Position numbers and translations under genes: made by a program. From the NCBI GenBank assembly GCA_026770705.1, contig JANJGN010000089.1:434001-498000 (forward strand): a stretch of DNA of 64,000 bases. The letters are read 5' to 3'. The notes below the pieces were generated by a model that ran no database searches, was not told the origin of the DNA, and was given only the letters and a program-made list of their open reading frames with translations. Each line of letters opens with the position of its first letter. Positions within the stretch are counted from its first letter, which is position 1. Shown piece after piece: positions 1-56,070 of this stretch. The DNA comes from Isurus oxyrinchus. Lineage: Eukaryota.

Positions 1-655
1 TATTCGGGGCCTCGTTCCCAATCAGTGTTTAATTGTCCACCGCCTTTCACGACTGGAAGTGACAGAACTGCACAGCTTAGATCCGATGTGTTGGTTATGG
101 AATCACATCAAAAGCGATTGTCTATGAGGACAATAGACATGGCACAAAAAAACGAAGAATGGAGTAATTGGAATAACATAAGTAGGATTTCTAAGTGTCC
201 CTAAGAGTTCAGCCTCAGCTGGTGCATCCCGTCTGGTTCTGGGCGCTACAATTTAGGAAGGATATTAAGGATGCTGGAAGGAGTGCAGAACAAATTCACG
301 AGAATGCTGCTGAGATGAGGAACTTCAGTTAGGAAGATAGATTGTAGAGGTTAGGACTGTTTTTCTGGGAGAAAAGAAGTCTGAATGGAGATTTGATAGA
401 AGGATGGAAAATCACGAGCGACCTGAGCAGATTTGATGGGAGGAAAGTGTTCCCGTTCGTGAAAGGATCAAGTTCGAGCTGTTGCAGATTTAAAGTAGTT
501 GCTAAAAAAAAACTGAGACGAAGAAAAATAAAACTTTATATTTTCTCGCAGGAAGAGGTTAAGGTCTGGAATGCAGCGCCTGTGATTGAGGTGAAATGAA
601 CTGCGAGGGAAGAATTAAGAACGGACTGTCATCTGGAAAGGAAGAACGTTCATGC
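1..655. mobile_element. Decayed LINE fragments, with a CR1 ORF2 C-terminal part on + at about 205-655; duplicated at about 53950-54595
   Basis: ORF 393-599 (..DGRKVFPFVKG..FSQEEVKVWNAAP) resembles the CR1 ORF2 C-terminus. A collinear diverged copy lies at 53950-54595. Confidence 0.7.
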
Positions 656-2875
656 TTGCAACTTAATATCTCACCTGAAGAAATAGAATCTTCAAAGTTT
701 TGAAAGCCCAGTGCAGGTGAAAGTTTTCAATTCGCACAAATGAACAATAATATTTGCAGCGAAGAAGTGGGATGCAATTCAGAACTTTGCTTTGTAAACT
801 CTGGTCAGTGTTGGGCTTGTGACTTGGTTATTTAAAACGCTGCTTTAATACACATGAGATACTCTGTTTAAATGTCAGTGGCACCTTTATCCTTTCAGTG
901 AATGCATGGTTTTAAATTTAACCAATGACGTCCTGAAACACAGTAGGGAATTAGGAGCCGATGTAATGAAGCCAAACAGGATCACCGTTTCCTTGGGAGG
1001 TTCAAGTCGAAGGAACAATTTGAAATATTGCCGGCGAAAATGATGAGCGAGAGTTGAATTTTTTGCGTCACTGCATGTTCGCCAGGAATGAATGAGGAGG
1101 GATACGTGTTGCAGTCCTTTTTGATGAGACCCTTGGGTTGACACTTTCTTCAACCCGACACTTTGTGATTTGCACAATGTATAGCGTTACTCCGAATGAC
1201 CTTCGTGGTTTTCAGTGTGACGGTGTCACCGGTTCCCACAACAAGCACCATATGATTTTTTTTAATCCACTTGAGAAATCTACCTCTGTGCCTTTTGTAG
1301 CTTCCCACTCCAATTATATCTTACCAAAACCAACGAATACTGCAAAGGTTTAAAGGCCCAGCGCAGATGCCTGGGCAACAGGAGTTGTCAAATCATACAT
1401 TGCTGGTAAAGAACGAGTAGTTGGTTCAAATTAGAATAACTGTGAAATGAAGCCAAAGGGAGGCTGCCGGTCTGCCTCTGAGGGGAATTCGCTGCAGAGG
1501 ATGAAATACCTAACAGTAAAATTGAACAAAAGCTTGTGATATCTCTTGTTCGACAGTGATGGGGAGTAGAGGCCGAGTAGCTCTTGAGAGCTCTGTAGCG
1601 CATCAGACATATAACCTGAGGGTCCAGGCTTGAAGTCCCAGTCTATGGGTTGCTTTTTGGATCAAGCTGTTGATTGCAAGTAAAACGACAAAAGACAGAA
1701 AAATAGACGCTGACATCTTCAAGGAGAACTGAGGTAACGTTTCGTTTATTTCCAAGGAAAGATCCACCCTCTCGAAACTGGGGTAGCCTCGATCAATTTA
1801 TGAATTGTTACTGGGATTCCTGATGCTCCAAGTGTGATAAGTGCTTCCTGACATATCCGTTTTTTGGCACAATCATTGTGGACCTGTGGCAAAACAAAAT
1901 GTTAAAATTCAATCCCGTTCTTGCCACCAGAGAGAAGACTTCTCTGCGTTTAACCTAACAATTCATTTTAACAGGTTAAAAACTTCAACCAGAGCACGCT
2001 TCATTCTCCTGTAATCAAGGGAACAGAAAAAATATGAATCCCTGAAAGTAGAAAAAAAATTGTGCAGGGATGGAGGGAAGTCGGGGGGATTGGCAGTGGT
2101 CGAATTGCTCCCTCAAAGAGCCAGTACAAGCAGGATAGGGCAAATGGCCTCTCTCTATTCTGTATACATTCTATGTTGATTCGAATCTAGGATGATGAAT
2201 CTTTAACTCCAAAAAAACCCTAATGAATTCGGGAATCGCACTGGTGAATCAGCACCGCTTCCATTCCAAGCTCAGTATAATCCTGGTGTTCCCTCTGAGC
2301 GGTGTCTGTAAGAAAATGAGAAAACGGAGCAGGTGTATCATGTGTCTCACGTCTTTTTAAACATTCCAGAACTTTCTGTTTGGATATCCGTTTCAATTGC
2401 TCCTTTCTGAAAATTCTCAATTCGTGCTGCTCTACAGCCCCATAGCAAATGAATTATTCCAAACGAGTTTGCTGCAAAATAATCAAACACAGTTCAAAAC
2501 AGGGCTGGGTGATGTTGCTTGTAACTTAGCGCCACGGATCGTTTCTTACATTTGATATTGCAGACGGTTCAAAGTTCGGTTCTCAATAACGCGGTTATTT
2601 ATTTCAAATTAATTAGGTAAAGAGCTGAACATTTTCAAGTCGGGAGGAAGCATATAGAATGACGTGCAAATATAAAGAAGCACAGTGGGGTCGAAATTCT
2701 CTTCGAAGCGAACATGCACCCTTGTTCTTAAGAATTGCTCCCTCTTCTTTTCATCCTAACGAACTTGTGGGTTTGCACTGTTACCCGAATGATAACCGGT
2801 TCGGGGTTATTGCAAAAGTTATGCATTGGATGCCATTTTCTTTTCCTGTTAGACCTTTATCCGCCGCACACACTT
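656..2875 (+). repeat. Duplicated module X containing a tRNA-Lys pseudogene; other copies at about 41510-42810 (partial) and 51335-53592
   Basis: Shared collinear anchors include 'aatcttcaaag(t/c)tttgaaagcc', 'ccaaagggaggctgccggtctg', 'gtttaacctaacaattcattttaacaggtta', 'ggtgtctgtaagaaaatga' and 'cgccgcacacac'. Confidence 0.85.
1571..1649 (+). pseudogene. tRNA-Lys(TTT)-derived pseudogene
   Basis: 'GCATCAGACATATAACCTGAGGGTCCAGGCTTGAAGTCCCAGT' aligns to vertebrate Lys-TTT 'GCATCAGACTTTTAATCTGAGGGTCCAGGGTTCAAGTCCCTGT'. The D arm, B box and anticodon are damaged. Confidence 0.75.
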
Positions 2876-3039
2876 AAAAAAAAAACGATATTACGGGTAC
2901 ATTTACGAAAGCCTTAAGAGATTTCAGAGGTAAAGGGTGAATGGGAGAATAGACTAGCAGATGTTTTTTTTTACTCTATGGATATAAATATAAAAAGTTG
3001 CGAAAACAGGAACGGGCCGAATAGGGACTAAAACGGAAT

Positions 3040-3360
3040 TTCACGCCTGGAACCAGATGATTATATCGTGTTTGCCAAGAAAGAAAAACACGGCCAAAGG
3101 CAGAGTGAAACTCGAGGTAGTTGTGAAATTGGATGCTCGACAATTGTAGAAAGAGACGGCATTATAAACCTGGCTTTTCTTAAATGTTGATAATTCACCT
3201 GGATTGGTTCAGGGGCAGGGTGTTGAGGAAAGAAAGTTTGGAAATTGTGGAGGGTAGTGGGCCGCAAATTTCCAATCCTGCTTAGTTATAACGGACGATG
3301 CTAGAGAATTTTAGAATTGCAAATGTTATACCATTCTTCACAAAATTTAACTAATTATCA
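3040..3360 (+). mobile_element. Decayed CR1 LINE ORF2 fragment
   Basis: CR1-like segments such as 'aattcacctggattggttcagggg' and 'tttagaattgcaaatgttataccattcttcacaaaa' (W-R-I-A-N-V-x-P-x-F-K-K motif), with many stops. Confidence 0.55.
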
Positions 3361-54300: not shown

Positions 54301-54595
54301 AGGACTATTTTCCTGAGACAAAAAAGGCTGAGAGGGGACTTGATGGAGGGATTGAAATTCACAGATTGGATGTGAAGAAAATGTTCCCGTTCCTGAAAGG
54401 ATCAAGTTCGGGCTGGTGCAGATTTAAAGTAATTGTTAAAAATGCAAAAGTGACACGAGAACAAAAAAATGATTCTTTCTCACAGAAAGTGGTCAAGGTC
54501 TGGAATGCAGCACCTGAAAGTGTGGCCGAGGCAGGTTCAAGGGAAACATTCAAACGGGAGTTAGACTGTTATCTGGAACGGGAGAACGTTCATGC
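51335..54595 (+). repeat. Paralogous copy of window 656-2875 (51335-53592) followed by a copy of 1-655 (53950-54595)
   Basis: Collinear matches as described for 1-655 and 656-2875. Confidence 0.85.
52276..52336 (+). pseudogene. tRNA-Lys(TTT) pseudogene lacking most of the anticodon arm
   Basis: GCCTGGGTATCTCAGTCGGTAGAGCATC^TGAGGGTCCAGGATTCAAGTCCCTGTCTAGGCT has a 12-nt deletion between the two ATC repeats of GCATCAGACTTTTAATCTGAG. Confidence 0.88.
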
Positions 54596-55489
54596 GGGCA
54601 GAAGGCGGGGAATGGCACAAAGTGAATTACTCATTTGGAGAGAAGGTGGTGACAAAATGGGTCGAATGACCTTCTCCTGCGCTGTAACATTTCTGAGTTT
54701 CTGTGATTCTGTGAGTATAATAAGGAAAGAAAAGATGTGCCCAAATGAGGTTGGGAATTGGCAGCACAGCATCCGCCCGAATGTAACATGGAGAATAAAG
54801 ATAGAAACGTGACAAACCAAACCGGCCAGAAGAAAACAATACACGCTGGAAACAACATGGAGACAGATGCTAGGGTCTAAATCCGTTGAACTTAATGTTG
54901 ATTCCGGAAGGCTGCAGTTGGAAGATGAGGTGTCCTCCTTGGAAGTTTGCTGTTATTGAAGCCTTATATTCCCAAAGCACGTTCAGTGACGTTGTGCCTG
55001 ATTGGAGAAGAGCCTTATATGCTCGCCTTTGCCTCATATTCCCTCATACCCTCTAATAAAATTCTATGAATCTCAGATTGAAAATACAACAATCGATCCA
55101 ACATTAGTTTCCGTGTACAGAGGGAGCTCTGAACTTCCACAACTCTTTCTGTGTAGAATTGTTTCTCAATTTCCATTCTGGCTTTAGATTTTTGACTGTG
55201 GCCCTTAGTGCGAGATTCCCAGGAAACAGAAGTAGGTTCTGGCACTGATCTTATGTTTCCCTTGGCATCCAGAATTCTTGGATCAAATCAGTGCATGAAT
55301 CACGAGGGAGGATGTGCTCCAGGAACAGCCAGTGTCTTCCAGGGACTGAGCTGTGTTTTACTGTCCGTAATTGAGGAGCATGAGGAGGGGATTCAAGACG
55401 CAAATGGTGTTGCAGAGCAAGAAAGTTGAAAGATTGGCGACGAGTGAGAGCGAGGAATATAAATGGCATTCAGGACTTTTTTTCCAAAT

Positions 55490-56070
55490 GACTTCAGACT
55501 GAGAGAGCGCCACATTGTCCGAGAACTGAGGGATTGCTGCACTGTCATTGGATTTGGACTGAGGGAGCGTTGCACAGTCAGTGGGTGAGGACTGAGCGAG
55601 CGCTGTCCTGCCAGGTGGTCAGGATTGAGAGAGCGCTACACTTTCAGAGGTCAGGACTGAGGGAGAGCTGTACTGTTGGAGGGTCAGGATTGAGCCTGTT
55701 GCACTATCAGGGTCTCACTGCTGAAGGAGCACTGCGCAGTCAATGGATGAGGGCTCAGGGAGCGCTGCACTGTCGGAGGGTCAGGACTGATCAAGCGCCT
55801 TACTGTCAGATGGTTAGGCATGATCGAACACTGCACTGTCAGAAGGTCAGGAATAAGGGAGTGTTATGTTCTCAGATGGTCAAAACAGAGGGAAGGCTGC
55901 ACTCACAGTCAGCCAGAAATGAGGGACCACTGCACTTTCAAAGAATCAGGAAAATGGGAGCGCCGCACCGTCAGTGGGTCAGGAATGAGGGATCGCTTCA
56001 CTGTCAGAGTTTCGGGGAATGCGGGAGCGCCACACAATCAGTGTCAGCGCTGTCAGAGGGGAGCTGAGCG
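55490..56070 (+). repeat. 33-bp minisatellite, about 17 degenerate units (gggtcaggactgagggagcgctgcactgtcaga)
   Basis: Visible periodicity. ORF 55534-56067 shows matching 11-aa repeats (GALHCQRVRTE-like). Confidence 0.88.

What the first reader, a model, noticed from the sequence alone, without database searches (positions are those of the whole stretch)
1..56070. Birth-and-death cluster in which tRNA genes, histone remnants and GPR139-like GPCRs are interleaved in locally duplicating DNA
Seen in sequence: 2 intact and about 8 dead tRNA genes of 7 isotypes, a replication-dependent H3 remnant, one intact and at least one dead GPR139-like receptor, embedded among local duplication modules. Established: the human extended MHC (6p22) co-localises tRNA, histone and GPCR (olfactory receptor) clusters. 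Inference: the shark GPR139-like family may expand by hitchhiking in recombination-prone tRNA arrays, giving a similar tRNA/histone/GPCR superlocus.
Basis: partly seen in the sequence, partly recalled or inferred. Interest (0 to 1): 0.7.

Follow-up and report, generated by a model that had tools for sequence, protein, structure and literature searches.

The report
Shark receptor-tRNA block, 25 copies
This shark DNA is one of at least 25 copies of a large duplicated block that carries orphan receptor genes together with two intact and about ten decayed tRNA genes and histone scraps, which likely rode along as passengers, because the family's other big expansions show no tRNA genes nearby.

Summary
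The window has 2 intact tRNA genes, 8 identified and 2 probable dead ones, an H3 tail with stem-loop, one intact two-exon receptor, one dead receptor and old local duplications (68-77% identity). The window is one of at least 25 copies (93-96% identical, 19 contigs) of a block of about 150 kb holding four receptor genes. Its DNA likely descends from the histone/tRNA cluster. The causal idea is not supported family-wide: 0 of 26 receptor-centred loci from other clades carry a tRNA-like sequence; the block holds 2 intact tRNAs in 264 kb; homology ends are not enriched at tRNA genes (3 of 48 within 100 bp, 2.4 expected). A local link is real: 38 of the 40 closest tRNA-Asp copies lie on contigs of this receptor clade. 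MHC class I lies on another scaffold; this contig is unplaced. The receptor is not GPR139. tRNA-histone co-clustering in elasmobranchs is already in print, and this scan flagged the receptor family before on other DNA of this genome.

The parts
812..886 (+). tRNA-Thr remnant (weak)
   Evidence: 28 bits to Thr-AGT; paralogue of the 51.5 kb copy
1571..1643 (+). tRNA-Lys(TTT) remnant
   Evidence: 79% over 70 nt, 54 bits
2515..2590 (+). probable tRNA remnant, isotype unassigned
   Evidence: paralogue of 53243-53313; no library or Rfam hit
7367..7440 (+). intact tRNA-Ile(AAT)
   Evidence: called in 19 of 20 block copies
8745..9308 (+). dead receptor gene, N-terminal part, stop and frameshifts
   Evidence: tblastn up to 52.8 bits; 75% DNA identity to the intact gene over 113 nt
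10351..10440 (+). tRNA-Arg(TCG) intron-type remnant
   Evidence: 74% over 82 nt; live copies on histone contigs
10490..19760 (.). copy A of an old tandem duplication
   Evidence: 68-77% to 21562-28650
11525..11596 (-). intact tRNA-Asp(GTC)
   Evidence: called in 20 of 20 block copies
15205..15845 (+). H3.3-type processed pseudogene with AATAAA, short poly(A) and a degenerate target-site duplication
   Evidence: best PDB matches are H3.3; absent from copy B and from a C20 paralogue
19590..19662 (-). tRNA-Gly(TCC) remnant
   Evidence: 84% over 63 nt
21562..28650 (.). copy B of the old tandem duplication, lacking tRNA-Asp and the H3.3 insert
28474..28545 (-). tRNA-Gly(TCC) remnant
   Evidence: 85% over 72 nt
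32396..33300 (-). receptor exon 2 (7tm_1)
   Evidence: Pfam PF00001 77.9 bits
35529..35598 (-). receptor exon 1 (ATG, 23 codons plus one base)
41910..41980 (+). tRNA-Lys remnant (third copy of the module)
   Evidence: 31-34 bits
50810..50966 (+). 3' end of a replication-dependent H3 gene with stem-loop
   Evidence: paralogue 3 kb left of the window
51506..51580 (+). tRNA-Thr remnant
   Evidence: 36.8 bits
52276..52336 (+). tRNA-Lys remnant, anticodon arm deleted
53243..53313 (+). probable tRNA remnant, isotype unassigned
   Evidence: tRNA shape only in relaxed ARAGORN; kept in paralogues
55525..56009 (.). 33-bp tandem repeat, 14.8 copies
   Evidence: related array at G000:C35:19.40 Mb

Best explanation
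The window is one of at least 25 copies of a segmental duplication of about 150 kb that carries four orphan class A receptor genes, two intact tRNA genes and many dead tRNA and histone relics, and these relics are likely passengers left from an old piece of the histone/tRNA cluster, not the engine of the receptor expansion. Shown: block copies, gene order, birth and death of receptors and tRNAs, and later retroposition of an H3.3 mRNA into one arm of an old tandem duplication. Inferred: (1) a window-clade receptor came to lie in DNA derived from the histone/tRNA cluster; (2) short 1-9 kb modules duplicated long ago (65-77% identity) and most tRNAs died; (3) tRNA-Asp was kept by selection or conversion through the older duplications; (4) recent amplification ran by unequal crossing-over between whole blocks, which give tens of kilobases of homology, so 72-bp tRNAs are not needed; (5) selection, if any, acts on two of the receptors, which stay intact, while the window-type receptor is mostly dead.
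For: Block: among 25 copies of the H3.3 relic, tRNA-Asp lies 3.4-4.0 kb upstream in 25; a second receptor at -42 to -61 kb in 19; a third at -72 to -103 kb in 13; a fourth at +34 to +67 kb in 14. The window-type receptor lies at about +17 to +23 kb in 24 (19, 5 more). Birth and death: window-type receptor intact in 4 of 17 copies, third type in 12 of 13, dN/dS 0.37 among the intact third type; second type without a stop in exon 2 in 28 of 29 close copies. Passengers: in 21 recent copies tRNA-Asp diversity is 0.042 against 0.030-0.041 in its flanks. tRNA-like hits: 0 of 17 plus 0 of 9 receptor-centred loci of other clades (Rfam 0). The 150 kb of flank scanned holds two intact-looking receptors and no Rfam tRNA. 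Homology ends within 50/100/200 bp of a tRNA: 1/3/6 of 48, against 1.5/2.4/4.1 expected; the one apparent end at tRNA-Gly runs on about 100 bp upstream. Cluster origin: all 40 best matches of the intron-type Arg(TCG) gene lie on the histone contigs; H3 tail here and an H2A relic with stem-loop in the C20 array.
Against: 38 of the 40 closest tRNA-Asp copies (99-100%) are on contigs of this receptor clade, and 7 of them sit in flanks only 78-81% like the window. So tRNA-Asp was conserved in older duplicates; these 7 are related copies, not independent events, and the query was the window's own allele. tRNA-Ile diversity in recent copies is about half that of its flanks (0.021 against 0.035-0.040; significance not computed). 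Homology ends are in excess within 500 bp (14 against 8.7, p 0.04) and 1 kb (23 against 14.4, p 0.007) of tRNAs, though the paralogues were partly picked by tRNA-flank and H3 searches. The C20 array has remnants in 4 of 10 loci against 0 of 20 background (p 0.008). One receptor lies 0.38 Mb from H3 genes on histone contig C40, and C35 carries both the block and live tRNA arrays 7-8 Mb apart. The negative loci cover only about 4.5 kb each side of the gene and the library has 14 classes. Flanks of the remnants show no clear homology to the 23 histone-contig loci sampled.
Confidence: 0.65

Rival explanations
1. One reading: recombination-prone tRNA genes drive the expansion of the whole receptor family, making a tRNA/histone/GPCR superlocus like the human extended MHC.
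For: tRNA-Asp copies concentrated on receptor contigs; homology ends in excess within 0.5-1 kb of tRNAs; receptors share scaffolds C35 and C40 with live tRNA or histone clusters; precedent in yeast, where tRNA genes are about three times enriched at breakpoints and gene gains (PMC2675101, passages). The MHC scaffold C21 has one family member at 73.3 Mb, one tRNA-Asp at 97.63 Mb and two histone hits.
Against: 0 of 26 other-clade receptor loci with a tRNA-like hit; no excess of ends within 200 bp; only 1 of 388 scored receptor rows lies on the five histone contigs, and it was the query; family members also lie on C18, C20, C23, C26, C29, C31 and C34, so one on C21 is unremarkable.
Confidence: 0.1
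2. Reverse hitchhiking: selection for more tRNA-Asp and tRNA-Ile genes favours amplification of the block, and the receptors ride along.
For: Both tRNAs stay recognisable in 39 of 40 possible places in 20 copies, while the nearest receptor is broken in 13 of 17; 99% tRNA-Asp in 80% flanks.
Against: tRNA-Asp varies as much as its flanks among recent copies; two other receptors of the block are mostly intact; 150 kb per tRNA pair is a costly way to add dosage when compact arrays exist; the Asp search had 637 candidates, only 40 scored.
Confidence: 0.08
3. The tRNA genes and histone scraps reached this region separately as dispersed copies, and the region has no descent from the histone/tRNA cluster.
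For: The H3.3 relic did arrive separately by retroposition; no clear flank homology to sampled histone-contig loci.
Against: Six or seven isotypes, an intron-type Arg gene and a stem-loop H3 end occur together; background has 0 in 200 kb; the same mixed-isotype pattern marks the histone contigs (13 of 23 loci).
Confidence: 0.12
4. The many copies are assembly artefacts (uncollapsed haplotypes).
For: Most copies lie on small unplaced contigs; the C138 copy is 96-99% identical and may be an allele.
Against: Copies differ by 4-10%, share derived stops and indels in subsets (stop at codon 124 in 8 copies), occur two or three times on one contig (C53, C64, C116, C138, C35) and have 79-88% paralogues on long scaffolds C20 and C17.
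Confidence: 0.05

Closest known systems
Elasmobranch tRNA/histone co-cluster (red stingray chromosome 28; bioRxiv 10.1101/2025.06.08.657570, section 6 read)
   Same: [quoted passage not shown] This genome has such live clusters on C37, C40, C50 and C73.
   Different: The window is a decayed offshoot with no intact histone gene and 2 live tRNAs, amplified with receptors; the passages read mention no such receptors.
Human extended MHC class I region (tRNA, histone, olfactory receptor clusters; PMC2776167, passages)
   Same: tRNA, histone and GPCR sequences side by side; a hitchhiking idea was already proposed there, for immune genes and high transcription.
   Different: 157 tRNA and 66 histone loci there against relics here; the receptors are not olfactory receptors (Pfam 7tm_1 only); no MHC gene seen in 264 kb by translation; linkage untestable.
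GPR139 / GPR142 and the GPR210 sets (PMC6504862, passages)
   Same: Class A receptor; database name 'probable GPR139' on most of the 120 listed homologues; an intron after TM1, which I recall also for GPR139.
   Different: Only 34.6 bits to human GPR139, below neurotensin (37.8) and motilin (37.1) receptors; about 385 loci scored in this genome, a lower bound; relation to GPR210 not tested.
Birth-and-death multigene clusters in segmental duplications (established; Nei and Rooney model, recalled)
   Same: Tandem and block duplication, intact and broken copies, dN/dS below 1.
   Different: The duplicated unit also carries live tRNA genes.
Processed pseudogenes of H3.3 (established, recalled)
   Same: Intronless, polyadenylation signal, short poly(A), target-site duplication, empty sites.
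   Different: Multiplied at least 25-fold afterwards as part of the block.

Membership tests
Live tRNA/histone cluster | Dense intact tRNA genes | tested here: not met
   2 in 264 kb, against 10 in 230 kb of histone contigs and 48 in 170 kb of array loci picked on tRNA hits
Live tRNA/histone cluster | Intact replication-dependent histone genes | tested here: not met
   Only H3 3' ends and an H3.3 pseudogene in 264 kb; queries were H3, H4 and a partial H2A, with no H2B or H1
Live tRNA/histone cluster | Mixed isotypes and stem-loop histone sequence (descent) | tested here: met
Extended-MHC-like superlocus | Linkage to MHC genes | tested here: inconclusive
   31 of 33 MHC class I hits on C21; C89 is an unplaced 2.07-Mb contig; old paralogues lie on C20 and C17
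Extended-MHC-like superlocus | Conserved synteny across sharks | not testable with these tools
   The genome has no relatives in the genome search
tRNA-driven rearrangement | Breakpoints at tRNA genes | tested here: inconclusive
   No excess within 200 bp, excess within 0.5-1 kb in a biased sample; homology ends are not true junctions
tRNA-driven rearrangement | Family members generally near tRNA genes | tested here: not met
   0 of 26 other-clade loci, about 4.5 kb each side
GPR139 orthologue | GPR139 as clear best match | tested here: not met
   34.6 bits, not the top PDB hit
Class A GPCR | 7tm_1 domain, complete spliced frame | tested here: met
Class A GPCR | Expression and ligand | not testable with these tools
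   No usable RNA data
Segmental duplication family | Over 1 kb, over 90% identity, collinear markers | tested here: met
H3.3 processed pseudogene | H3.3 residues, no intron, poly(A), target-site duplication, empty site | tested here: met
   the duplication is degenerate and the parent gene was not located

The most novel reading that the evidence does not exclude
The oldest part of this shark receptor family arose inside the ancestral jawed-vertebrate histone/tRNA cluster, so that a histone-tRNA-GPCR superlocus like the human extended MHC class I region evolved with a different receptor family; tRNA-bearing modules seeded the early duplications and the block now supplies a real share of the animal's tRNA-Asp and tRNA-Ile genes, tying receptor copy number to translation capacity.
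Probability: 0.12. Interest if true: 0.7.

Novelty: new member of a known kind. Interest (0 to 1): 0.36.

Why it matters
It shows how one clade of a very large, little-described shark receptor family multiplies: as blocks of about 150 kb that drag live tRNA genes and dead histone relics along. This inflates tRNA gene counts in shark genomes, which are reported to be unusually high (bioRxiv 10.1101/2025.06.08.657570), and it warns against reading co-location as cause. If the bolder reading held, it would point to a recurring histone-tRNA-receptor architecture in jawed vertebrates.

Tried and rejected
Relaxed ARAGORN (33 and 92 calls at lowered scores) was rejected as noise. The Rfam tRNA hit at 61170-61241 was rejected as a gene: it lies in a repeat covered up to 71 times by background loci. 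MIR444 hits at 12.3 kb are far below the gathering score and lie in a common repeat. The apparent module end at tRNA-Gly 19662 was rejected. One search used an exon boundary wrong by one base; its values are discarded and replaced. The search of protein representatives never left the queue, so the family's range outside cartilaginous fishes was not tested. The script machine was lost, so a binned Fisher test and a direct tRNA-versus-flank count in old paralogues were not run. Paper searches found no description of this receptor family or of its link to tRNA genes; the library lacks most subscription papers. The supplement of PMC11979771 was unreadable and bioRxiv supplements are closed; both may list such clusters. 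Look-ups of earlier findings by words, relatives and sequence gave nothing.
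Full report
Setting. The window is G000:C89:434001-498000, on an unplaced 2.07-Mb contig of a 4.98-Gb genome. All 120 listed homologues of its receptor come from sharks and rays, the closest (76%) from the white shark, so this is shark DNA.

Observation. ARAGORN and Rfam find two intact tRNA genes, Ile(AAT) and Asp(GTC). A library of intact tRNAs from fetched loci of this genome identifies eight dead ones: three Lys, two Gly, two Thr and one intron-type Arg. Two further paralogous relics could not be named. 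The same scan gives 0 hits in 20 background loci and 0 in reversed sequence. [quoted passage not shown] The H3 remnant at 50810-50966 is the 3' end of a replication-dependent gene with its stem-loop. The receptor has two exons and a clean 324-aa frame; a dead one lies at 8745-9308. Local duplications are old, 65-77% identical.

Two corrections. First, the larger histone relic at 15205-15845 is not from a histone cluster. Its best PDB matches are H3.3, it has no intron, ends in AATAAA and a short A run, is flanked by a degenerate target-site duplication, and is absent from the paralogous arm at 24.3 kb and from a C20 paralogue. It is a processed pseudogene. Second, the receptor is not GPR139: it scores 34.6 bits against human GPR139, less than against neurotensin and motilin receptors. 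Three searches scored 122, 132 and 134 loci, about 385 distinct, each a capped list.

The real unit. The H3.3 relic with its flanks has 25 copies at 93-100% on 19 contigs. In all 25 tRNA-Asp lies 3.4-4.0 kb upstream. A window-type receptor lies about 17-23 kb downstream in 24. Three other receptors lie at recurring offsets in 19, 13 and 14 of 25; these counts use capped lists and short contigs, so they are lower bounds. The block spans about 150 kb. Older paralogues at 79-88% lie on the long scaffolds C20 and C17. Divergence of 4-10%, shared derived stops and several copies per contig argue against haplotype artefacts; one copy (C138) may be an allele, and depth was not checked.

Birth and death. 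Of 17 window-type receptor copies fetched, 4 are intact; of 13 copies of the sister type, 12 are intact, with dN/dS 0.37. In 20 other block copies ARAGORN still tRNA genes, but tRNA-Asp is as variable as its flanks (0.042 against 0.030-0.041), while tRNA-Ile is less so (0.021 against 0.035-0.040). Over longer time tRNA-Asp was conserved: 7 of the 15 older paralogues listed, with flanks at 78-81%, hold a 99% identical gene; these 7 are related to each other.

Test 1: are receptors generally near tRNA genes? No. Ten-kb loci centred on receptors of other clades gave 0 of 17 and 0 of 9. Two window-clade loci and the C40 receptor locus were also blank. Rfam found none in the 30 loci. These other clades include the youngest and largest expansions, with branch lengths of 0.004-0.03. 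By contrast 13 of 23 histone-contig loci, 4 of 20 flanking loci on C89 and 4 of 10 loci of the C20 array had hits. The link is therefore local to the window clade and its neighbourhood, where it is real: 38 of the 40 closest tRNA-Asp copies lie on contigs that carry this clade. That search used the window's own allele and scored 40 of 637 candidates.

Test 2: do duplications end at tRNA genes? Of 48 homology ends, 1, 3 and 6 lie within 50, 100 and 200 bp of a tRNA (1.5, 2.4 and 4.1 expected). Within 500 bp and 1 kb there is an excess (14 against 8.7; 23 against 14.4). The sample of paralogues was partly chosen through tRNA-flank and H3 searches, and homology ends are not junctions. I read this as: short tRNA-bearing modules were duplicated long ago, but crossovers did not target the tRNA genes. 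The one apparent end at tRNA-Gly continues upstream on alignment.

Test 3: superlocus and MHC. 136 of 150 scored histone hits lie on five contigs, C37, C40, C48, C50 and C73. These carry mixed tRNA isotypes and all 40 best matches of the intron-type Arg(TCG) gene. The window's relics are of that kind, which suggests descent from such a cluster, although no clear flank homology was found in 23 sampled loci. One receptor lies on C40, 0.38 Mb from H3 genes, and C35 holds the block at 0.3-5.7 Mb and live Lys/Val arrays at 13-17 Mb. MHC class I maps to C21 (31 of 33 hits). C21 has one distant family member, one tRNA-Asp and two histone hits, but none of the 122 closest receptors. Linkage of C89 cannot be tested.

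Mechanism. Most likely (0.65): a receptor of this clade lay in DNA derived from the histone/tRNA cluster; old short duplications and decay left the relics; an H3.3 mRNA inserted; the whole block then amplified by unequal exchange between blocks, with selection keeping two of the receptors. Steps of origin, recombination mode and selection are inferred.

Literature. tRNA-histone co-clustering in a stingray, with the comparison to human chromosome 6, is in bioRxiv 10.1101/2025.06.08.657570 (passages and sections 6 and 9 read). The extended-MHC statement and a hitchhiking idea are in PMC2776167 (passages). The yeast precedent is PMC2675101 (passages). PMC6504862 (passages) names GPR210 sets near GPR139/142 and has no shark data. 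PMC11979771 (passages and section 6) and PMC8455134 (passages) do not mention GPR139 in their main texts. Nine searches found no description of this family or its link with tRNA genes. Earlier notes of this scan describe the family repeatedly in this genome.

Verdict. A real, well-supported case of co-duplication, and a new member of known kinds. The causal hypothesis fails its main test for the family and stays open only for the early history of one clade. Interest 0.36.

Noticed in passing
window 32396-33300; alignment A1: The second-extracellular-loop cysteine kept in 25 of 28 aligned receptors is phenylalanine in the window receptor and its white-shark relative, so this clade likely lost the usual class A disulfide.
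   Followed up: no
G000:C21:97632611-97632682: A 99% identical tRNA-Asp gene lies about 18 kb from an MHC class I exon hit; histone-fold hits lie at 101.5 and 115.4 Mb of the same scaffold.
   Followed up: no
G000:C40:9302449-9303324 (L072): A single-copy, intact-looking receptor, sister to the large young clades, sits at the end of a live histone/tRNA contig.
   Followed up: partly
contigs C34, C51, C63, C70, C72, C78, C85, C93 and others: A very young receptor clade with over 100 near-identical, mostly intact copies.
   Followed up: partly
L045:861-1258 (G000:C20:79.94 Mb): An H2A pseudogene with a histone stem-loop above the gathering score lies inside the C20 receptor array.
   Followed up: partly
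window 52276-52336 and paralogues L195, L201: A tRNA-Lys lacking its anticodon arm keeps D and T arms and scores 30-39 bits; probably just a young deletion.
   Followed up: no
G000:C89:524000-558000 (L033-L036): Tandem-repeat arrays of about 6 and 22 kb lie right of the window and may bound the block.
   Followed up: no
window 58575-58906, 60713-61251, 13650-13750: tRNA-like heads of common repeats that can be mistaken for tRNA genes; the SINE label is recalled, the repeat status of the first two is.
   Followed up: partly
window 18611-18946 and 27619-27829: A decayed 46-bp minisatellite is present in both arms of the old tandem duplication.
   Followed up: no
G000:C35:13.3-17.1 Mb, C2:57.26 Mb, C14:120.9-126.4 Mb, C23:9.9-10.2 Mb: Compact live arrays of tRNA-Lys/Val and tRNA-Cys, up to 7 genes per 10 kb.
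   Followed up: partly
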